Position numbers and translations under genes: made by a program. From the IMG/VR virus record IMGVR_UViG_2778261316_000009: DNA of 36,248 bases, one strand, 5' to 3'. Shown piece after piece: positions 26,010 to 33,834 of this stretch (position 1 is its first letter; each line of letters starts with the position of its first letter). Source of the stretch: a virus. Taxonomy: Duplodnaviria > Heunggongvirae > Uroviricota > Caudoviricetes. A model generated the notes under the pieces. That model did no database searches. It was not told the DNA's origin and saw nothing but the letters and a program-made list of their open reading frames with translations.

Positions 26010-26180
26010 ATGTTTGTGAAACCTGTTAAAGGGCGGTCAGTGCCTGACCCTGCCCGCGGTGACCTTTTGCCCACCGAAGGGCGAAATGTTGATGAGAACA
26101 ACTACTGGCTGCGCCGTGAAGCAGCGGGTGATATCCGGCGCGTGAATAAAAAGGTGAACACCGATGACGATAAGCTTTAA
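26010..26180 (+). CDS. Mu gp38-like small protein (56 aa), absent from the ORF track
   Basis: MFVKPVKGRSVPDPARGDLLPTEGRNV ... NYWLRR matches the small protein conserved before Mu-type sheath genes; overlaps the sheath start. Confidence 0.55.
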   Translation: MFVKPVKGRSVPDPARGDLLPTEGRNVDENNYWLRREAAGDIRRVNKKVNTDDDKL

Positions 26181-27660
26181 CACCATTCCGTCGAATACGC
26201 TGGTTCCGCTGTTTTATGCGGAAATGGATAACCAGGCGGCGAATACTGCACAGGACAGCGGAGCATCGCTGCTGATTGGTCATGCCAATAACGGTGCAGA
26301 GATTGTTGCCAACAGTCTGGTGCTGATGCCGTCGGCAGACTATGCACGCCAGATTTGTGGTGCGGGAAGTCAGCTGGCGCGTATGGTCGAGGCTTATCGC
26401 CAGACCGACCCGTTTGGTGAGCTGTATGTGATTGCCGTTCCTGAATCCACGGGCGCGGCGGCAACGGTTACGCTGACGGTGACCGGGGCGGCAACCGAAA
26501 CCGGCACGGTTAATGTTTATGTGGGACGTACCCGCGTACAGGCACCGGTGACCAACGGCGATAACGTTGCGACGATTGCCAGCAGTATCAAAGATGCCAT
26601 CAATGCCGTTCCGGCCCTGCCGTTTACGGCTTCATCTTCGGCAGGCGTGGTCACACTGACCGCGCGTCATAAGGGGCTTTGCGGGAATGAAATTCCTGTC
26701 AGCCTCAATTACTACGGGTTTGGTGGGGGCGAAGTGCTGCCAGCGGGCGTACAGATTGCCGTGGCGACGGGTACCGCCGGAACGGGCGCTCCGGTTCTCA
26801 CCGGCGCGGTGGCTGCAATGGCGGATGAGCCGTTTGATTATATCGGCCTGCCGTTCAACGACACGGCCTCCGTTAACACGCTGGTGACCGAGATGAACGA
26901 TACCAGCGGTCGCTGGAGCTATGCGCGTCAGCTGTATGGTCATGTGTATACGGCAAAGATCGGCACGCTGTCAGAACTGGTGACCGCAGGTGACCAGTTT
27001 AACCAGCAGCACATTACCCTGGCGGGATACGAAAAAGACACTCAGACGCCAGCCGACGAGCTGGCGGCAAGCCGTACCGCCCGCGCAGCGGTGTTTATTC
27101 GCAACGATCCGGCACGTCCCACGCAGACCGGTGAGCTGGTGGGTATGCTGCCTGCGCCGAAGGGGAAACGGTTCACGATGACCGAGCAACAGACCCTGCT
27201 GTCTCATGGCGTGGCAACGGCGTATGTCGAAAGTGGGGTACTGCGCATTCAGCGTGATGTCACCACGTACAGGAAAAACGCTTACGGGGTTGCGGATAAC
27301 AGCTACCTCGACAGTGAGACGCTGCATACCAGCGCGTATGTACTGCGCAAACTGAAATCCGTCATTACCAGTAAGTACGGGCGTCACAAGCTTGCCAGTG
27401 ACGGTACCCGCTTTGGTCCCGGTCAGGCGATTGTCACCCCGGCGGTGATCAAAGGGGAACTGCTGGCAACCTACCGTCAGCTCGAGCGTGCGGGGATCGT
27501 GGAAAACTACGAACTGTTTAAGCAGTACCTGGTTGTGGAGCGTGATGCCAGCGATCCGAACCGCCTGAACACGCTGTTCCCGCCTGACTATGTTAACCAG
27601 TTGCGTGTCTTTGCCGTGGTTAACCAGTTCCGTCTTCAGTATTCAGAGGAGTCTGCATAA
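26164..27660 (+). CDS. contractile tail sheath protein (Mu gpL-like)
   Basis: 498 aa, followed by tube, chaperone and tape measure genes. Confidence 0.85.
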   Translation: MTISFNTIPSNTLVPLFYAEMDNQAANTAQDSGASLLIGHANNGAEIVANSLVLMPSADYARQICGAGSQLARMVEAYRQTDPFGELYVIAVPESTGAAATVTLTVTGAATETGTVNVYVGRTRVQAPVTNGDNVATIASSIKDAINAVPALPFTASSSAGVVTLTARHKGLCGNEIPVSLNYYGFGGGEVLPAGVQIAVATGTAGTGAPVLTGAVAAMADEPFDYIGLPFNDTASVNTLVTEMNDTSGRWSYARQLYGHVYTAKIGTLSELVTAGDQFNQQHITLAGYEKDTQTPADELAASRTARAAVFIRNDPARPTQTGELVGMLPAPKGKRFTMTEQQTLLSHGVATAYVESGVLRIQRDVTTYRKNAYGVADNSYLDSETLHTSAYVLRKLKSVITSKYGRHKLASDGTRFGPGQAIVTPAVIKGELLATYRQLERAGIVENYELFKQYLVVERDASDPNRLNTLFPPDYVNQLRVFAVVNQFRLQYSEESA

Positions 27661-28016
27661 TGGCCCGTATCGGGGGAACCTGTTATTTCAAAATTGACGG
27701 TCAGCAGCTATCGCTGACCGGCGGCATTGAGGTGCCCATGAACAAAACGGTTAACGATGACATCATCGGCCTGGACGGTTCAGTGGACCGCAAGGAAACT
27801 CACCGTGCACCTTATGTCAAAGGGACCTTCAAGGTGCCGAAGAATTTTCCGGTGAGCAAAATCACCTCGTCTGATGAGATGACCATCACTGCCGAGCTGG
27901 CGAACGGTCAGGTCTATGTACTGTCGTCTGCCTGGCTGCACGGCGAAGCGAACCATAATGCCGAAGAAGGCACGGTCGATCTTGAGTTCCACGGTGAAGA
28001 AGGGGATTACCAGTAA
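27660..28016 (+). CDS. tail tube protein (Mu gpM-like)
   Basis: 118 aa, TAATG coupling to the sheath gene. Confidence 0.8.
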   Translation: MARIGGTCYFKIDGQQLSLTGGIEVPMNKTVNDDIIGLDGSVDRKETHRAPYVKGTFKVPKNFPVSKITSSDEMTITAELANGQVYVLSSAWLHGEANHNAEEGTVDLEFHGEEGDYQ

Positions 28017-28285
28017 TGAAAGAGCTTGAGTTAAAGAAACCGATTACCGCTCATGGCGAGACACTCTCCGTACTGGAGTTTGATGAGCCCACCGGGAAAG
28101 ATGTCCGCGAGCTGGGATATCCCTACCAGATGAATCAGGATGAGTCCGTCAGACTTCTGGCGCATGTGGTATCGAAATACATCGTGCGGCTGGCGAAAGT
28201 GCCGCAAAGCTCTGTCGACCAGATGTCTCCGGCAGACCTGAATGCAGCGGCGTGGCTTGTGGCCGGTTTTTTCCTCCAGGCCTGA
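28016..28285 (+). CDS. tail assembly chaperone; a predicted -1 frameshift product extends to 28434
   Basis: slippery heptamer T_TTT_TTC at 28267-28273 in the zero frame; the -1 frame ORF runs to the tape measure start. Confidence 0.7.
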   Translation: MKELELKKPITAHGETLSVLEFDEPTGKDVRELGYPYQMNQDESVRLLAHVVSKYIVRLAKVPQSSVDQMSPADLNAAAWLVAGFFLQA

Positions 28286-28426
28286 CGGCTGAATACCTCA
28301 CTGATCGCTTCTTTGACTGCGCCAGTTACTGGCGCATTAATCCCTTCGAATTGCTGAATATGCCGATCAGTGAAATTCCCTTGCTGGTCAGTCAGGCAAA
28401 CAGGATAGAGCAGGAGAAACGCACAC

Positions 28427-30262
28427 ATGGCTGAATTTGAGCTTAAGGCGTTGATCACCGGTGTCGACAGGCTTTCTCCCGCGCTGTCGAAAATGCAAAA
28501 GAAAATCCGGGGATTTAAACGCCAGGCGGAAGAAGCGTCACAGGGTGGGCTGGCGCTTGGTGGCGGACTGGCAGCGGGTCTGACGCTTTCCCTGAAATCT
28601 TATGCCGATCAGGAAAACGCCGCCACCGGGCTGAAAGTCGCCATGATGGATGCGAACGGCGAGGTTGGAAAGAGCTTTCAGGACATCAATAAACTGGCTA
28701 TTGGCCTGGGTAACCAGCTACCCGGTACAACGGCTGATTTCCAGAACATGATGCAGATGCTGGTGCGTCAGGGGATCCCGGCAGAAAACATTCTTGGTGG
28801 TGTGGGTAAAGCGACAGCTTATCTTGCGGTACAACTGAAAAAAACACCGGAAGCGGCTGCTGAGTTTGCTGCAAAGATGCAGGATGCTACCGGAACGGCG
28901 TCAGAAGACATGATGGGGCTGTTCGACACTATCCAGAAGGCGTTTTATCTGGGCGTTGACGATACCAACATGTTGTCCTTCTTCACTAAAACCAGTTCTG
29001 TTCTGAAGATGGTGAACAAGGACGGTCTTCAGGCTGCACAGAGCCTTGCCCCCATCAGCGTCATGATGGATCAGATGGGGATGAACGGGGAGTCGGCAGG
29101 TAATGCCCTGCGAAAAGTTATCCAGTCCGGATTAAGCGTTAAGAAAATCAGGGACGTCAATAAAGTCATGGCCCGCCAGAGACTCGGGGTACAGCTCGAT
29201 TTTACTGACGGCAAAGGAAGTTTTGGCGGTCTTGATAACATGTTCAGGCAACTGGCAAAGCTGCGAAAACTGACCGACGTTAAGCGAACAGGTGTACTTA
29301 AGGCAATATTTGGTGATGATGCCGAAACCCTTCAGGTGGTCAATGCACTAATCGATAAAGGAAAGGATGGCTACGATCAGATCCAGCAGAAGATGAATAA
29401 ACAGGCCAGCCTGAATAAACGTGTTCAGGCACAGCTTGGTACGCTGTCCAACCTGTGGGAGGCAATGACGGGGACCGCAACTAACGGCCTTGCGGCTATT
29501 GGCGGCGCATTTTCTGGTGACGCCAAAAATATCACGCAATGGCTGGGGGAGTTGGGGGAAAAATTCACGAAGTTTGCGGATGAAAATCCCCGGGTTATTC
29601 GCGGCGTCGTCGGGCTTGCTGCCGGTCTTGCGATTCTGAAACTGGGATTGATGGGCGTGGGCAGTGCCATCAGTATCGTCAGCAGGATCATGTCGATGAC
29701 GCCGATTGGCATGATTGCGACGGCGATTGCCCTGGCTGCGGGATTAATTATCACTAACTGGGATGTTGTTGGACCTTATTTCAAGAAGCTCTGGGAAACC
29801 ATTGGTCCTTATTTTGAGGCTGGCTGGGAACTTCTGAAGAAGGTTTTTGCCTGGTCGCCGCTGGGGATGGTAATCAATAACTGGGGACCGGTTGTTAAGT
29901 GGTTTCAGGATATGTGGGACAAGCTGAAGCCAATTATTGAGTGGTTTACCGACAGTTCCGGTGACACGGTCGATGCCATTAACTCTGCGCAGTGGGGCGC
30001 GGGTGCTTATGATGCTTATGGGACGGGAATACCGGCGCGGGGATACACACCTTATCCGGCGGTAGATCCGGCTCAGTCAAACAACGCCTCCGATGCTACA
30101 GGCCCGAATCCCTTCATGATTAACAAAGCTTCTGCGCCAAAAGTTGACGGTGAGATCAAGGTCTCTTTTGTGAATTTGCCTCCGGGTATGCGGGTTATGG
30201 AAACGCGATCCAGCGGTTTTGATATAAATCACGATGTTGGCTATACGCATATTGGCAGATGA
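28427..30262 (+). CDS. tail tape measure protein
   Basis: 611 aa, Ala/Gly-rich with TM-like segments, downstream of the chaperone. Confidence 0.85.
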   Translation: MAEFELKALITGVDRLSPALSKMQKKIRGFKRQAEEASQGGLALGGGLAAGLTLSLKSYADQENAATGLKVAMMDANGEVGKSFQDINKLAIGLGNQLPGTTADFQNMMQMLVRQGIPAENILGGVGKATAYLAVQLKKTPEAAAEFAAKMQDATGTASEDMMGLFDTIQKAFYLGVDDTNMLSFFTKTSSVLKMVNKDGLQAAQSLAPISVMMDQMGMNGESAGNALRKVIQSGLSVKKIRDVNKVMARQRLGVQLDFTDGKGSFGGLDNMFRQLAKLRKLTDVKRTGVLKAIFGDDAETLQVVNALIDKGKDGYDQIQQKMNKQASLNKRVQAQLGTLSNLWEAMTGTATNGLAAIGGAFSGDAKNITQWLGELGEKFTKFADENPRVIRGVVGLAAGLAILKLGLMGVGSAISIVSRIMSMTPIGMIATAIALAAGLIITNWDVVGPYFKKLWETIGPYFEAGWELLKKVFAWSPLGMVINNWGPVVKWFQDMWDKLKPIIEWFTDSSGDTVDAINSAQWGAGAYDAYGTGIPARGYTPYPAVDPAQSNNASDATGPNPFMINKASAPKVDGEIKVSFVNLPPGMRVMETRSSGFDINHDVGYTHIGR

Positions 30263-30278
30263 CGGAACCAGATATAAT
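30252..30278 (+). promoter_or_regulatory. candidate promoter for the tail-module moron
   Basis: TTGGCA (30252-30257), 15-bp spacer, consensus TATAAT (30273-30278). Confidence 0.4.
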
Positions 30279-30314
30279 TTGTCTTTAAGTTTGTTATCAA
30301 CTGAAGGGAAATCT

Positions 30315-30692
30315 ATGGGTCTGTTACATGCCATTATAGGTAATGCCGGTGAAATTAATGCATCAGATGCACAACAGGAATTAGGGGCTGTTTTAGGTGA
30401 GGGAGAAAATGTCGAACTTGCCTATAAACTCATTCGTGACCAAATTATTCTGACTAACAGAAGGTTAATTTTTATTGATAAGCAGGGTGTCACAGGGAAA
30501 AAAGTAGAGTATCGTTCGATTCCTTATAAATCTGTGACAAACTTTTCTATTGAAACCGCCGGGCATCTTGATCTTGATGCTGAAATGAAGATATGGATTT
30601 CTGGTATTGCAGAACCGATAAAAAAACAGTTCAGTAAAGGAGCAAACATTTATAAATTGCAGGCTCATCTGGCTCAAAAAATAGCAGGGTAA
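30315..30692 (+). CDS. moron: small bacterial PH-domain-like protein
   Basis: AT-rich 125-aa ORF with AAGGGA RBS and its own terminator, inserted between tape measure and gp43-like genes; LIFIDKQGVTGKKVEYRSIPYKSVTNFSIE resembles bacterial PH domains, a weak call. Confidence 0.55.
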   Translation: MGLLHAIIGNAGEINASDAQQELGAVLGEGENVELAYKLIRDQIILTNRRLIFIDKQGVTGKKVEYRSIPYKSVTNFSIETAGHLDLDAEMKIWISGIAEPIKKQFSKGANIYKLQAHLAQKIAG

Positions 30693-30715
30693 ACCTTACA
30701 TTAATTTATGTCTTT

Positions 30716-30741
30716 CATGCCCACTTCGGTGGGCTTTTTTA
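30716..30741 (+). terminator. rho-independent terminator after the moron
   Basis: GCCCAC-TTCG-GTGGGC followed by T6. Confidence 0.7.
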
Positions 30742-30755
30742 TATCCGGAGTTTAT

Positions 30756-32210
30756 ATGACGTGGAAAGACAGGCTTCAGGACGCGTCATTTCGCGGTGTG
30801 CCGTTTAAGGTTGAAGAAGAAAGTGCGGGAACAGGTCGCCGTGTGGAAACACACGAATATCCGAACCGCGACAAACCCTATACCGAAGATCTGGGAAAAG
30901 TCACTTTCCGCCCGTCCATCACGGCTTATGTGGTGGGCGATGACTGCTTTGACCAGCGCGATCGCCTGATTGACGCGCTGAATAAACCCGGTCCCGGCAC
31001 GCTTGTCCACCCGACTTACGGTGAGCTGAAAGTCTGTGTTGACGGAGAGGTTCGGGTCAGCACATCGAAAAGTGAAGGGCGTATTGTCCGCTTTGACCTG
31101 AAGTTTGTCGAAGCGGGAGAACTCTCTTACCCCACATCAGGTGCGGCGACGGCGCAGACGCTGATGTCATCCTGTTCTGCACTGGATGACTGCATCAGTG
31201 ACAGCTTCAGCGGTTTCAGTATCGATGGTGTGGCGGATTTCGTGCAGAACGACGTTATCGGTAATGCCAGCATAATGCTGGGGTATGTTTCTGATGCGAT
31301 GAAAGTGGTGGATTCTGCCGTATCGGATGCCGCCAGGCTGTTGCAGGGGGATATCTCGGTACTTCTGCCGCCGCCATCGTCAGGCAAAAATTTCGTTGAG
31401 CAGGTGCAGAAAATGTGGCGTACCGGGAAACGCCTTTATGGTAACGCCAGCGACCTGGTCACCATGATCAAAACGCTTTCCGGTGTCAGCCTCGGCAGCG
31501 ATCTGCAACCGCGCGGCGTCTGGAAAACGGACAGTAAAACCACCGCCACGGCGACGCAGCAGCGTAACGTGGTTGCCAGCACCCTTCGTGCGACCGCAAT
31601 CAGCGAAGCGGCGTATGCCGTCACCCGATTGCCTGCGCCAACAACTTCCGCGGTGATGCAGAATGCCGCAGTGGGGCAGTCAACAACTTCCGCGGTGATG
31701 CAGAATGCCGCAGTGGGGCAGTCAACAACTTCCGCGGTGATGCAGAATGCCGCAGTGGGGCAGTCAACAACTTCCGCGGTGATGCAGAATGCCGCAGTGG
31801 GGCAGTCAACAACTTCCGCGCAGAGCACCGGCTGGCCTTCCGTCACGCATCCGGCACTGAACAATGCACCGGCGGTGAAAAACACGGTTGACCTGCCAAC
31901 GTGGGAAGAACTGACTGACATTCGCGACACACTGAATACGGCAATTGATAAGGAGTTGTCCCGTACAACCAGTGATGCGCTGTTTCTGGCGCTGCGCCGG
32001 GTGAAAGCAGATCTGAATGCGGATATCAACACGCGCCTTGAACAGTCTGCTCGGATCATTCAGCGCACGCCGGATGAGGTCTTACCCGCGCTGGTGCTGG
32101 CGGCGACCTGGTTTGATAACGCGGCGCGTGACGCGGACATTATCCGGCGTAATGCCATTACGCATCCCGGCTTTGTGCCGGTGATCCCTCTGAAGGTGCC
32201 AGTGCAATGA
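30756..32210 (+). CDS. Mu N / gp43-like DNA circularisation protein with an internal tandem repeat
   Basis: MTWKDRLQDASFRGVPFKVEEE start typical of the DNA circularisation N-terminal domain; CCGGAG RBS. Confidence 0.75.
   Translation: MTWKDRLQDASFRGVPFKVEEESAGTGRRVETHEYPNRDKPYTEDLGKVTFRPSITAYVVGDDCFDQRDRLIDALNKPGPGTLVHPTYGELKVCVDGEVRVSTSKSEGRIVRFDLKFVEAGELSYPTSGAATAQTLMSSCSALDDCISDSFSGFSIDGVADFVQNDVIGNASIMLGYVSDAMKVVDSAVSDAARLLQGDISVLLPPPSSGKNFVEQVQKMWRTGKRLYGNASDLVTMIKTLSGVSLGSDLQPRGVWKTDSKTTATATQQRNVVASTLRATAISEAAYAVTRLPAPTTSAVMQNAAVGQSTTSAVMQNAAVGQSTTSAVMQNAAVGQSTTSAVMQNAAVGQSTTSAQSTGWPSVTHPALNNAPAVKNTVDLPTWEELTDIRDTLNTAIDKELSRTTSDALFLALRRVKADLNADINTRLEQSARIIQRTPDEVLPALVLAATWFDNAARDADIIRRNAITHPGFVPVIPLKVPVQ
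31641..31820 (+). repeat. perfect 42-bp tandem repeat, four copies plus a partial, in frame (TTSAVMQNAAVGQS)
   Basis: identical units starting at 31641, 31683, 31725 and 31767. Confidence 0.9.
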
Positions 32211-33286
32211 ACGATAACGTCACGCTACGGGTAAATGGCCGGGAGTGGAATGGCTGGACATCGGTGCGCATCGGTGCCGGTATTGAACGGCTGGCGCGGG
32301 ATTTCAGCGTGGAGATCACCCGCCAGTGGCCGGGAGATGAGGGTATCACCACGCTTCAGCCGCGCATTAAAAATGGTTCAAAAGTGGAAGTGCTGATTGG
32401 TGATGAGCTGGTGATCACCGGCTGGGTGGAGGCGACCCCCGTTCGTTACGATGCCCGTTCGGTCAGCACCGGTATTGCCGGACGTAGTCTGACGGCTGAC
32501 CTGATTGACTGTGCAGCCGAACCGACACAGTTTAACGGACGCTCGCTGGTGCAGATTGCGCAGGCGCTTGCTGCGCCTTTCGGCATTGAGGTGGTGAACA
32601 GCGATGCGCCGTCGGGTGTTATTCCGGATGTCCAGCCTGATCACGGTGAAACGGTGATCGAGGTGATCAACAAAATACTCGGTCAGCAGCAGGCGCTGGC
32701 TTATGACGACCCGCACGGCAGGCTGGTGATTGGTGGTATTGGCTCAACGCGGGCACATACCGCGCTGGTACTTGGGGAAAACATCCTTTCCTGTGATACG
32801 GAGAAGAGTATCCGGGAGCGGTTTTCAGTTTACCAGGTGGCGGGGCAGCGTGCCGGAAACGACGATGATTTCGGTGAGGCCACCACCACCGCGCTGCGGG
32901 CCCGCACAGAGGACGCATTTATTGCCCGTTACCGTCCGATGTATATCAGGCAGACAGGGCAGGCTACGGGGGCAGGCTGTATTGCCCGTGCGGACTTTGA
33001 AGCCCGACAACGGGCGGCGCGGACGGATGAAACCACCTATGTGGTGCAGGGCTGGCGACAGGGTAACGGTACGCTGTGGCAGCCCAACCAGCGGGTGATT
33101 GTCTTTGATCCGGTCTGTGGTTTCGACAATACCGAACTGCTTGTTTCGGAAGTCACGTTTACTCAGGACCAGAACGGCACCCTGACGGAAATCCGTGTCG
33201 GCCCACCTGATGCTTATCTGCCTGAACCCGAAGCCCCCGGCGCGCGGAAAAAGAAAAAAGCCAGAGTACAGGAGGAGCCGTTCTGA
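32207..33286 (+). CDS. Mu P / gp44-like baseplate hub protein
   Basis: 359 aa, ATGA coupling, position after the gp43-like gene. Confidence 0.7.
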   Translation: MNDNVTLRVNGREWNGWTSVRIGAGIERLARDFSVEITRQWPGDEGITTLQPRIKNGSKVEVLIGDELVITGWVEATPVRYDARSVSTGIAGRSLTADLIDCAAEPTQFNGRSLVQIAQALAAPFGIEVVNSDAPSGVIPDVQPDHGETVIEVINKILGQQQALAYDDPHGRLVIGGIGSTRAHTALVLGENILSCDTEKSIRERFSVYQVAGQRAGNDDDFGEATTTALRARTEDAFIARYRPMYIRQTGQATGAGCIARADFEARQRAARTDETTYVVQGWRQGNGTLWQPNQRVIVFDPVCGFDNTELLVSEVTFTQDQNGTLTEIRVGPPDAYLPEPEAPGARKKKKARVQEEPF

Positions 33287-33834
33287 TGAGGACGATTGAA
33301 GCCATGCAGCGACAACTCCTCGGCCTGATTGGGCGGGCCGTGGTGAAAAGCATCAGTGCCGCCACGAAATGTCAGACCGTGGATGTGTCCCTGATTGCCG
33401 GTGAACCCAAAGCCGGGGTTGAACATCTTGAACCCTACGGTTTTACCGCAAGGGCAAACAGCGGTGCGGAAGCGGTGGTGTTGTTTCCGGATGGCGACCG
33501 TTCTCATGCGGTGGTTGTTACGGTGTCGGACCGTCGCTACCGCCTGAAAGGGCTGCAAACGGGGGAGGTGGCTGTCTATGACGATCAGGGGCAGTCCGTG
33601 ACGCTGACCAGGGAGGGGATCGTGGTGGACGGTGCAGGTAAAACGATCACGTTTCGCAATGCGCCCAGAGCACGCTTTGAAATGGACCTGGAAGTGACAG
33701 GACAGGTGAAAGACCTGTGCGACTCCGGCGGCACCACCATGTCAGCGATGCGGCTTGCCTATAACGGGCATCGTCACAGAGAGAACGGTCAGGGAAGTAA
33801 CACCGACAAACCTGATAAAGCGATGGAGGCATGA
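33286..33834 (+). CDS. baseplate assembly protein V / spike (Mu gp45-like)
   Basis: LEPYGFTARANSGAEAVVLFPDGDRSHAVVVTVSDRRYR matches the phage baseplate V family pattern. Confidence 0.75.
   Translation: MRTIEAMQRQLLGLIGRAVVKSISAATKCQTVDVSLIAGEPKAGVEHLEPYGFTARANSGAEAVVLFPDGDRSHAVVVTVSDRRYRLKGLQTGEVAVYDDQGQSVTLTREGIVVDGAGKTITFRNAPRARFEMDLEVTGQVKDLCDSGGTTMSAMRLAYNGHRHRENGQGSNTDKPDKAMEA

What the first reader, a model, noticed from the sequence alone, without database searches (positions are those of the whole stretch)
28016..28434. Programmed -1 frameshift site in the tail assembly chaperone
The chaperone ORF (28016-28285) overlaps a -1 frame ORF (to 28434) that ends at the tape measure start. 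The overlap contains the canonical slippery heptamer T_TTT_TTC at 28267-28273 in the zero frame. This is the conserved two-product chaperone arrangement and the ORF track splits it into two unrelated ORFs.
Basis: partly seen in the sequence, partly recalled or inferred. Interest (0 to 1): 0.4.

Follow-up and report, generated by a model that had tools for sequence, protein, structure and literature searches.

The report
Tail chaperone programmed −1 frameshift site
This is an ordinary, well-known kind of viral recoding signal: a slippery run of T's lets some ribosomes shift frame and make a longer version of a phage tail-assembly helper protein, and public genome annotation misses it in this phage group.

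Summary
The 89-aa ORF 28016-28285 is a Phage_TAC_7 tail assembly chaperone (the family of P2 gpE and Mu gp41). It lies between the tail tube and tape measure genes of an SfV/SfI/SfII-type prophage. T_TTT_TTC (28267-28273) is in the zero frame, and the -1 frame runs open to 28434, overlapping the tape measure ATG (28427) by 8 nt. The motif alone is not rare. The case rests on comparison. 202 of 209 unique relatives keep a zero-frame TTTTTT(C/T/G). Substitution periodicity switches from frame 0 to frame -1 at the heptamer. The heptamer's synonymous sites are almost frozen. No relative has its own ribosome-binding site for the -1 ORF. The experimentally proven P2 E/E+E' site has the same heptamer position and geometry. 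The predicted products are an 89-aa chaperone and a 139-aa fusion. No record I inspected annotates the shift, and the -1 ORF is deposited about 1,000 times as a hypothetical protein. The one new element is a subfamily-specific, unusually stable RNA structure (28280-28397) that starts 6 nt after the heptamer. Its apical hairpin (28318-28336) has frozen synonymous sites. It is a candidate stimulator, not a proven one. Overall this is a new, unannotated member of a known kind, of low interest.

The parts
28016..28285 (+). Zero-frame tail assembly chaperone gene (lambda G / P2 E analogue), 89 aa
   Evidence: ORF. Pfam PF10109 Phage_TAC_7, E=1.9e-16, 60.3 bits against cut-off 25. phrog_166 'tail protein'. 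RefSeq calls it 'phage tail assembly protein'.
28267..28273 (+). Slippery heptamer T_TTT_TTC (zero-frame codons GGT TTT TTC)
   Evidence: TTTTTT(C/T/G) is conserved in the zero frame in 202 of 209 unique relatives. Among 97 close relatives, position 28267 is T in 93, position 28270 is T in 97 and position 28273 is C in 96, while the adjacent Ala third base uses all four nucleotides. P2's proven site is in the same alignment column.
28273..28434 (+). -1 frame extension (P2 E'-like / lambda T analogue): 53 codons plus TGA. Predicted fusion = join(28016..28273, 28273..28434), 139 aa
   Evidence: Frame -1 codon periodicity of substitutions, 0.24/0.12/0.69. The conserved protein motif is shared by 10 relatives and P2. 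hhalign against P2 E' gives probability 83%, E about 1e-5. phrog_32181 'unknown function', E=4e-40.
28274..28279 (+). 6-nt spacer between the heptamer and the first predicted stem. Part of the nearly invariant dual-coding stretch 28274-28285
28280..28397 (+). Candidate long-range RNA structure (outer stem GCCUGAC 28280-28286 pairing with GUCAGGC 28391-28397). A possible frameshift stimulator or mRNA-protective fold. Not established.
   Evidence: Fold of 28274-28400: -43.5 kcal/mol, z=-4.37, 0 of 200 shuffles as good. The same closing stem with a 6-nt spacer appears in 47 of 65 independently folded relatives, median z -4.2. 9 pairs have double changes, reached by 0 of 500 shuffles. Against it, RNAalifold does not recover it and the slid controls give an equal covariation score.
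28318..28336 (+). Apical 8-bp hairpin UGCGCCAG-YUA-CUGGCGCA (a perfect 19-nt palindrome), 45 nt 3' of the heptamer, with suppressed synonymous variation
   Evidence: Local fold z=-3.4. It is invariant in 65 sequences. Synonymous entropy is 0 / 0 / 0.08 / 0 in the stem codons TGC, GCC, TAC and CGC, against 0.97 in the loop codon and 0.6-1.4 in the flanks. None of the 28 four-fold codons in the chaperone domain is frozen. It is present only in the window-type subfamily.
28412..28429 (+). Tape measure ribosome-binding site (AGGAG 28412-28416) and ATG 28427, embedded in the 3' end of the extension. The ATG overlaps the -1 stop as ATGGCTGA.
   Evidence: CAGGAG...ATGGCTGA is conserved in the commonest versions of 97 relatives. 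The synonymous sites of CAG and GAG at 28411-28416 are frozen. The -1 stop ends +7 or 0 relative to the next ATG in 195 of 202 unique versions.
28427..30262 (+). Tail tape measure protein gene (611 aa), downstream partner of the chaperone pair
   Evidence: PF10145 PhageMin_Tail, E=9.8e-27. phrog_28 and phrog_17727 'tape measure'.
27660..28016 (+). Tail tube protein gene (118 aa), upstream neighbour. Its stop overlaps the chaperone ATG.
   Evidence: PF10618 Tail_tube, E=3.3e-33. phrog_185.

Best explanation
This is a programmed -1 ribosomal frameshift site of the P2 E/E+E' class, in the tail assembly chaperone gene of an SfV-type prophage with a Mu-type contractile tail. Most ribosomes read 28016-28285 and release the 89-aa chaperone. 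A minority slip back one base on U_UUU_UUC. E. coli's single tRNA-Phe species (anticodon GAA), sitting on UUU in the P site and UUC in the A site, re-pairs with UUU and UUU. Those ribosomes continue in the -1 frame to 28434 and make a 139-aa fusion (...AGFF-PPGLTAEY...). By analogy with lambda G/GT, both proteins bind the tape measure protein through the shared N-terminal domain. The extension recruits the tube subunit, and the fixed ratio set by the shift efficiency is needed for correct tail assembly. Neither protein ends up in the virion. What is shown here: the sequence anatomy, family membership, synteny, conservation of the heptamer and of the -1 coding frame, and the absence of an independent start. 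What is inferred: that the slip is ribosomal, its efficiency, and the protein functions. A subfamily-specific RNA structure starting 6 nt downstream may raise the efficiency, but that is only a candidate.
For: Anatomy. The ORF is Phage_TAC_7 and lies between tube and tape measure. In 12 named phages spanning Escherichia, Shigella, Salmonella, Edwardsiella, Pantoea, Burkholderia, Pseudomonas and Bordetella, each has a zero-frame T-rich heptamer. The -1 frame is open to within +7, 0 or -3 nt of the tape measure start, while the zero-frame tail varies from 3 to 21 codons. 202 of 209 unique nucleotide versions keep TTTTTT(C/T/G). The codon before the run encodes G, R, N, S, P or D in different lineages yet always ends in T. 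Entropy by codon position switches from frame 0 (0.26/0.16/1.01) to frame -1 (0.24/0.12/0.69) at the heptamer, whose synonymous sites are almost frozen. The extension is conserved as protein and aligns to P2 E' (hhalign 83%, E about 1e-5). P2 E+E' is colinear with the family, with the slip-site Phe in the same column. P2's annotated -1 site, GGT_TTT_TTG, has the same geometry, with its -1 ORF ending +7 past the tape measure ATG. According to PMC3091744 it yields 91-aa and 142-aa products. H_HH.U_UU.Y motifs are among the most efficient -1 motifs in E. coli (PMC4066793). No unique version has a -1-frame start preceded by an SD-like motif.
Against: There is no direct evidence of the fusion protein for this phage group. 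The heptamer on its own is common in the window, and the ORF geometry alone is not unique. The extension has no direct Pfam or NCBIfam hit, and BLASTP against P2 E+E' is not significant (E=0.56). Four close relatives have GGG_TTT_TTC/T, which weakens P-site re-pairing. One unverified Paraburkholderia record has GGC_TTC_TTC. Ribosomal and transcriptional slippage would give the identical protein and cannot be told apart in silico.
Confidence: 0.88

Rival explanations
1. Transcriptional slippage. RNA polymerase adds one extra U while copying the T6 run, and normal translation of the U7 transcripts yields the same 139-aa fusion.
For: The product would be identical. Selection for a long T-run is also expected under this model. 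A weak terminator-like stem abuts the run. The 24 nt 5' of the run fold more stably than other windows of the gene in the window-type relatives, and 48 of 97 have a hairpin of at least 5 bp ending within 2 nt of the run. 1-nt insertions at the run do occur at the DNA level.
Against: Efficient slippage by bacterial RNA polymerase is reported for runs of 9 A/T. Shorter motifs need a strong stem-loop immediately 5', such as GCGGGCgcaaGCCCGC (PMC5009743). Here the run is 6-7 nt. With composition-matched controls the upstream fold is unremarkable (median z -1.1, -0.8 and +0.4), and its shape is heterogeneous, with 27 structures among 35 sequences. The window's own stem is 4 bp with a 10-nt loop. 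The upstream synonymous sites vary freely. The homologous P2 site is described as a translational frameshift (PMC3091744).
Confidence: 0.06
2. The -1 ORF is an independent small gene (60 aa, started at GTG 28252), as some pipelines annotate it, and no frameshift is involved.
For: The mechanical ORF list gives a GTG start. The 60-aa product is deposited as 'hypothetical protein' on about 998 contigs, and one phage record annotates it separately. It has its own PHROG, phrog_32181.
Against: None of the 202 unique relatives has a -1-frame start preceded by an SD-like motif. None of the 36 phiP27-type versions has any start codon between the upstream -1 stop and the heptamer. At 28252, 41 of 97 close relatives have CTG. 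Upstream of the heptamer the periodicity is purely frame 0. An independent start would not explain the frozen heptamer.
Confidence: 0.03
3. It is a non-functional coincidence or decayed remnant: the overlap and T-run persist by descent in a prophage without being used.
For: The locus was sampled largely from prophages. Rare variants weaken the heptamer or fuse the frames.
Against: The arrangement is kept across lineages with only 35-45% protein identity and in plaque-forming phages. There is purifying selection in frame -1. Synonymous sites are frozen specifically in the heptamer while their neighbours are saturated.
Confidence: 0.03

Closest known systems
Bacteriophage P2 E / E+E' programmed -1 frameshift (Christie et al. 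2002, as cited in PMC3091744; annotated in NC_001895)
   Same: Same Pfam family for the upstream protein (PF10109, named for P2 E). The T6N heptamer is in the zero frame in the same alignment column (GGT_TTT_TTG against GGT_TTT_TTC). Product sizes are similar (91/142 aa against 89/139 aa). The -1 ORF ends 7 nt past the tape measure ATG in both. The extension shares the Φ-x-x-A-x-Φ-(W/F)-x-x-x-P-x-E-L ... A-x-R core.
   Different: Here the last base is C (Phe in the A site) and not G (Leu). The zero-frame tail is 3 codons, against 6 in P2. Sequence similarity is only at profile level (BLASTP E=0.56). The surrounding tail module is Mu-type (DNA circulation protein, gp44-like hub) and not P2-type. 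P2 is reported to lack a downstream structure, whereas this subfamily has a candidate one.
Lambda G / GT tail assembly chaperone frameshift (Levin 1993; Xu, Hendrix and Duda 2004, 2013, 2014; summarised in PMC5009743)
   Same: [quoted passage not shown]
   Different: There is no detectable sequence homology. Lambda slips on G_GGA_AAG with tRNA-Lys. Lambda's tail is non-contractile.
Phage Mu gp41 chaperone (-2 frameshift)
   Same: The neighbouring genes here are Mu-like (sheath L, tube M, tape measure gp42, DNA circulation N, hub P). Pfam names PF10109 for Mu gp41 as well.
   Different: Mu gp41 is 144 aa and has no X_XXY_YYZ heptamer. Its -1 frame closes 38 nt after the stop, and its +1 (equivalent to -2) frame is the open one. 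Mu is reported to use a -2 shift (PMC5009743 and PMC2628397).
E. coli dnaX and IS3-family -1 frameshift cassettes (heptamer plus a downstream stem-loop 5-9 nt away)
   Same: An efficient X_XXY_YYZ heptamer, and in this subfamily a predicted stable structure beginning 6 nt downstream.
   Different: No upstream SD-like stimulator was seen by eye in the 20 nt before the run, and the synonymous sites there vary freely. The candidate structure is a 118-nt long-range fold and not a compact hairpin, and it is unproven.

Membership tests
Conserved tail-assembly-chaperone frameshift of long-tailed dsDNA phages (Xu, Hendrix and Duda 2004) | Two overlapping ORFs lying between the major tail/tube gene and the tape measure gene | tested here: met
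   Tube 27660-28016, ORF0 28016-28285, -1 ORF to 28434, tape measure from 28427.
Conserved tail-assembly-chaperone frameshift of long-tailed dsDNA phages (Xu, Hendrix and Duda 2004) | [quoted passage not shown] | tested here: met
   T_TTT_TTC at 28267-28273, 9 nt before the stop codon. It is conserved in 202 of 209 unique versions.
Conserved tail-assembly-chaperone frameshift of long-tailed dsDNA phages (Xu, Hendrix and Duda 2004) | The second frame is conserved as coding sequence in relatives and lacks its own translation start | tested here: met
   Frame -1 periodicity, a conserved extension motif, and 0 of 202 versions with an SD-preceded start.
Conserved tail-assembly-chaperone frameshift of long-tailed dsDNA phages (Xu, Hendrix and Duda 2004) | A fusion protein is actually produced, at a low fixed ratio, and is required for tail assembly | not testable with these tools
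   This needs mass spectrometry, a reporter assay and genetics.
Pfam PF10109 Phage_TAC_7 (P2 E, Mu gp41) | HMM score above the gathering threshold across the domain | tested here: met
   60.3 bits against 25. Residues 4-86 match profile positions 2-78 of 79.
P2 E/E+E' type -1 site | A T6N heptamer at the end of the E domain, with a -1 extension that overlaps the tape measure start | tested here: met
   The heptamer falls in the same alignment column and has the same +7 overlap geometry as annotated P2.
P2 E/E+E' type -1 site | The extension is homologous to P2 E' (Pfam PF06528 Phage_P2_GpE) | tested here: inconclusive
   The window's extension has no Pfam hit. 1 of 10 relatives hits PF06528 at E=0.0098. 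A profile against P2 E' gives hhalign probability 82.6%, E=9.7e-6.
Mu-type -2 chaperone frameshift | The extension is encoded in the +1/-2 frame, with no X_XXY_YYZ heptamer | tested here: not met
   In the window the +1 frame closes 7 nt after the stop and the -1 frame is the open one. Mu shows the opposite pattern.
Programmed transcriptional slippage sites | A homopolymer of about 9 or more A/T, or a shorter run with a strong nascent-RNA stem-loop immediately 5' | tested here: not met
   The run is 6 nt (7 nt in phiP27-type relatives). The upstream fold is weak, heterogeneous and mostly explained by base composition. The criteria come from PMC5009743.
-1 PRF cassette with a downstream stimulatory structure | A stable structure beginning 5-9 nt 3' of the heptamer, maintained by covariation | tested here: inconclusive
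   z=-4.4 with a 6-nt spacer. The same stem appears in 47 of 65 relatives, and 9 pairs have double changes. However, RNAalifold fails to recover it, the slid controls are equal, pairs are broken in 11-38 sequences, and it is absent from the other subfamilies.

The most novel reading that the evidence does not exclude
The SfV-type subfamily has acquired its own RNA element, which P2 lacks. It is a roughly 118-nt long-range fold (28280-28397) that begins 6 nt after the heptamer and is nucleated by an apical hairpin with frozen synonymous sites (28318-28336). It might tune the chaperone-to-fusion ratio as a frameshift stimulator. Alternatively it might protect the sparsely translated 141-nt stretch between the chaperone stop and the tape measure start from Rho or RNase attack, or control tape measure initiation.
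Probability: 0.3. Interest if true: 0.4.

Novelty: new member of a known kind. Interest (0 to 1): 0.2.

Why it matters
There are three practical points. First, annotation. The locus occurs in about 1,100 of the 20,395 records of complete E. coli genomes (1,089 of 5,426 genomes) and in the reference phages SfV, SfI, SfII, SfIV, ST64B and phiP27. None of the records I inspected carries the joined CDS. RefSeq leaves 141 nt unannotated, or the -1 ORF is called a hypothetical protein. Second, it shows that a Mu-type tail module can carry a P2-type chaperone recoding cassette instead of Mu's -2 site, which illustrates mosaic exchange at the level of a recoding signal. Third, the candidate downstream structure with synonymous-site constraint offers a simple testable system for how the frameshift ratio, or the stability of a poorly translated inter-cistronic stretch, is tuned. 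None of this changes current understanding of tail assembly.

Tried and rejected
- Direct family hits for the extension: none in Pfam or NCBIfam. The PDB sequence hits were spurious, with no stretch passing on its own.
- Single-ORF 'fusion' proteins P0001-P0006 from the big protein search looked like natural fusions. They are singleton, error-ridden assemblies that change frame several times.
- The exact 139-aa fusion exists in NCBI, but the encoding contigs carry 1-nt insertions at the run (GGG-T6 or T7), so this is not annotated recoding.
- The first viral-contig scan returned only copies at 99% identity or more. The alignment query on genome contigs failed, and the single-protein query gave 12 useful loci.
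- A terminator-like stem at 28253-28265 is within chance expectation (2 found against 1.1 expected), and its partner base varies among relatives.
- Upstream SD-like stimulator: none seen by eye in the 20 nt before the run, and the synonymous sites there vary freely.
- The palindrome GCGCCAGnnnCTGGCGC as a repeated DNA binding site: it occurs only once in the window.
- Rfam gave no match.
- The +45 hairpin as a universal element: it is absent from the phiP27-type, Pseudomonas and Bordetella relatives and from P2.
- Christie et al. 2002 (PMC135442) is not held, so the P2 facts come from secondary citations.
- I found no paper reporting this frameshift for SfV-type phages.
Full report
**1. Observation**

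- ORF0 runs from ATG 28016 to TGA 28283-28285 and encodes 89 aa.
- The -1 frame is open from 28144 to TGA 28432-28434.
- The next gene's ATG is at 28427, so the two overlap as ATGGCTGA.
- The zero-frame codons around the T-run are GGT TTT TTC. T_TTT_TTC at 28267-28273 is therefore a genuine X_XXY_YYZ heptamer, 9 nt before the zero-frame stop codon.
- A -1 slip gives a 139-aa product, 86 residues of ORF0 plus 53 new ones: ...LVAGFF-PPGLTAEYLTDRFFDCASYWRINPFELL...THG.
- The mechanical ORF list does split the locus into 28016-28285 and a GTG-started 60-aa ORF at 28252-28434.

**2. Is it more than chance?**

On sequence alone, only weakly.
- TTTTTTC occurs 20 times in the window on both strands, against 8.3 expected.
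- Among 99 mechanical ORFs of at least 80 aa there are 51 zero-frame heptamers. Five of them have a long -1 frame running past the stop. I did not examine the other four individually. The one I converted to window coordinates (33214-33558, minus strand) lies antisense to the baseplate-hub gene.

The weight of the case comes from context and comparison.

**3. Context**

The neighbouring genes are:
- tail sheath, 26164-27660
- tail tube, 27660-28016
- tape measure, 28427-30262
- DNA circulation protein, 30708-32210
- Mu gp44/P-type baseplate hub, 32207-33286

ORF0 itself is Pfam Phage_TAC_7, 'tail assembly chaperone proteins E, or 41 or 14', at 60.3 bits against a cut-off of 25.

The DNA is 98-99% identical to phages SfV, SfI and SfII and 100% identical to a prophage of E. 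coli 730V1. The locus is present in 1,089 of 5,426 complete E. coli genomes.

No record I inspected has a joined CDS. RefSeq leaves 141 nt empty between the chaperone and the tape measure, and one phage record calls the -1 ORF a hypothetical protein.

**4. Comparative test**

*Named phages.* I examined 12 named phages from Escherichia, Shigella, Salmonella, Edwardsiella, Pantoea, Burkholderia, Pseudomonas and Bordetella hosts, with chaperone identity down to about 35%. Every one has a zero-frame TTTTTTC, TTTTTTT or TTTTTTG at the end of the conserved domain. The -1 frame is open from there to +7, 0 or -3 nt relative to the tape measure start. The zero-frame tail varies from 3 to 21 codons and is unrelated in sequence between lineages. 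The +1 frame is not consistently open.

*Larger sample.* After adding loci from bacterial genomes and viral contigs there were 209 unique nucleotide versions.
- 202 keep the heptamer.
- Extensions are 50-63 codons long.
- The -1 stop sits at +7 or 0 relative to the next ATG in 195 of them.
- The codon before the run encodes Gly, Arg, Asn, Ser, Pro or Asp in different lineages but always ends in T.

*Codon periodicity.* Among 97 unique close relatives (69-100% nucleotide identity), column entropy by codon position is 0.26/0.16/1.01 in frame 0 upstream of the heptamer and 0.24/0.12/0.69 in frame -1 downstream. The coding frame therefore switches at the heptamer.

*Frozen synonymous sites.* Within the heptamer the synonymous sites are nearly fixed: the Gly third base is T in 93 of 97, TTT is kept in 97 of 97, and TTC in 96 of 97. 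The adjacent Ala third base uses all four nucleotides, with entropy 1.72.

*Extension as protein.* The extensions share a Φ-x-x-A-x-Φ-W-(R/K)-Φ-(N/D)-P-x-E-L ... A-x-R-I core.

**5. Relation to known systems**

*P2.* P2 is annotated with the E/E+E' -1 frameshift. Its site is GGT_TTT_TTG in the zero frame, and its -1 ORF ends 7 nt past the start of tape measure gene T. Its E' peptide (..VAVIFHWPPSEL..ALRR..) aligns with the extension profile at hhalign probability 83%, E about 1e-5. P2 E+E' is colinear with the whole family, with the slip-site Phe in the same column. According to PMC3091744, P2 shifts at TTTTTTG to give 91-aa and 142-aa proteins and has no downstream hairpin. PMC5009743 states that P2-type efficiency is 2-3 fold that of lambda.

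*Mu.* Mu has no heptamer, and its +1 frame is the open one. The literature reports a -2 shift for Mu. So a Mu-type tail module here carries a P2-type recoding cassette.

*Motif efficiency.* PMC4066793 ranks H_HH.U_UU.Y motifs among the most efficient -1 motifs in E. coli. It also lists U_UU.U_UU.C as under-represented in genes and as shifting at more than 0.1% without any stimulator.

**6. Rivals**

*An independent gene started at GTG 28252.*
- None of the 202 unique versions has a -1-frame start preceded by an SD-like motif.
- The phiP27-type relatives have no start codon at all in that stretch (0 of 36).
- 41 of 97 close relatives have CTG at 28252.

*Transcriptional slippage.* It would give the same protein.
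- Efficient slippage is reported for runs of 9 A/T, or for shorter motifs with a strong adjacent stem-loop.
- The weak stem flagged at 28253-28265 is within chance.
- The apparent stability of the 24 nt upstream largely disappears with composition-matched controls (median z -1.1, -0.8 and +0.4), and the predicted shapes are heterogeneous.
- It cannot be excluded in silico.

*'Natural fusions'.*
- P0001-P0006 are error-ridden singletons.
- The exact 139-aa sequence deposited in NCBI comes from contigs with a 1-nt insertion at the run, either GGG-T6 or T7. These are rare indel variants or homopolymer errors.
- The 60-aa ORF is deposited as a hypothetical protein on about 998 contigs.

**7.

*Single-sequence folds.* Short local folds next to the site are unremarkable. 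The stretch 28274-28400, however, folds into one long-range structure at -43.5 kcal/mol, z=-4.37, with 0 of 200 dinucleotide shuffles as good. Its outer stem (GCCUGAC 28280-28286 with GUCAGGC 28391-28397) starts 6 nt after the heptamer.

*Relatives folded independently.* 47 of 65 unique relatives place the first stem at the same 6-nt spacing. 61 of 65 close onto the same distal partner. The median z is -4.2.

*Pair counting.* On the alignment, 91% of cells are paired and 9 pairs carry double changes, which 0 of 500 shuffles reach. On the other hand the slid registers give an equal covariation score, several pairs are broken in 11-38 sequences, and RNAalifold recovers only the apical hairpin.

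*Apical hairpin.* The hairpin at 28318-28336 (UGCGCCAG-YUA-CUGGCGCA) shows clear nucleotide-level constraint. All four synonymous sites in its stem are frozen, while the loop's synonymous site (entropy 0.97) and the flanking ones (0.6-1.4) vary. None of the 28 four-fold codons in the chaperone domain is frozen.

*Distribution.* The element is confined to the window-type subfamily. It is not repeated in the window and has no Rfam match.

I regard it as a candidate stimulator, or alternatively as a fold that protects the sparsely translated stretch before the tape measure start. It is not established.

**8. Mechanism and verdict**

- Shown: the anatomy, family membership, synteny, selection on the heptamer, frame -1 coding, and the lack of an independent start.
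- Inferred from P2 and lambda: tandem tRNA-Phe slippage on U_UUU_UUC, a minority fusion product, chaperone binding to the tape measure, and tube recruitment by the extension.
- My confidence that this is a functional programmed -1 frameshift is about 0.88.
- It is an unannotated member of a well-known class, of low interest apart from the annotation gap and the candidate RNA element.

Noticed in passing
window 30234-30692 (+); probable true start near 30315: An ORF with a bacterial PH domain (PF08000 bPH_1, E=6e-48) sits between the tape measure and DNA circulation genes. In SfV these two genes are separated by only 45 nt, so this looks like an inserted 'moron' gene inside the tail operon.
   Followed up: partly
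window 31639-31820 (+), inside the DNA circulation gene 30708-32210: A perfect 42-nt tandem repeat with 4.3 copies and 100% matches. It encodes a 14-aa repeat (TSAVMQNAAVGQST) and makes the protein 500 aa, against 447 aa in SfV.
   Followed up: partly
L001 (E. coli 730V1, NZ_CP061764) compared with window 28427-30262: The tape measure gene is 651 aa in a genome whose tube-to-tape-measure-start region is 100% identical to the query stretch 27660-28700, against 611 aa here and in SfV. Tape measure length, and presumably tail length, varies among otherwise near-identical prophages.
   Followed up: no
L073, L067, L324, L036 (IMG/VR contigs), equivalent to window 28265-28273: Four close relatives have GGG_TTT_TTC or GGG_TTT_TTT in place of GGT_TTT_TTC. 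This is a synonymous change that removes the first U of the heptamer and leaves only the A-site U_UUY tetramer. They are possibly lower-efficiency natural variants.
   Followed up: partly
L350-L353 (two NCBI E. coli assemblies, two Logan assemblies): These carry 1-nt insertions exactly at the run (GGG-T6 or T7). The insertion fuses both frames into one 139-aa ORF, deposited as 'mu-like prophage FluMu gp41 family protein' (KDU22203.1, KEL88680.1). They could be real fused-only mutants or homopolymer sequencing errors. This was not resolved.
   Followed up: partly
L011 (Paraburkholderia phage IPK, UNVERIFIED record), around 1040-1090: This relative keeps the conserved extension motif (FDLAHFWNVSP) in the -1 frame but has GGC_TTC_TTC instead of a T-run. 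Its -1 frame opens only in the last three codons of the chaperone ORF. It may use a different slip site, or the record may contain errors.
   Followed up: no
L126 (IMG/VR, phiP27-type): The heptamer is intact, but an extra G 38 nt downstream (GG to GGG) puts the zero frame into the extension frame, giving another apparently fused version.
   Followed up: partly
L010 (Burkholderia gladioli phage BgVeeders33) and the literature (PMC5581363, PMC9603447): The Phage_TAC_7 family also contains Bg_9562, a B. gladioli 'prophage tail-like protein' reported as a secreted antifungal effector. The B. gladioli phage homologue has the same heptamer and -1 extension. That raises the question of whether Bg_9562's own locus also encodes a frameshift product.
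   Followed up: no
window 28274-28285: The 12 nt after the heptamer are nearly invariant at all three codon positions in 97 relatives. This stretch is the zero-frame tail L-Q-A-stop and also the -1 frame P-P-G-L. The stop changes only from TGA to TAA. The cause could be dual coding, a requirement on the spacer sequence, or the 5' arm of the candidate structure, and these could not be separated.
   Followed up: partly
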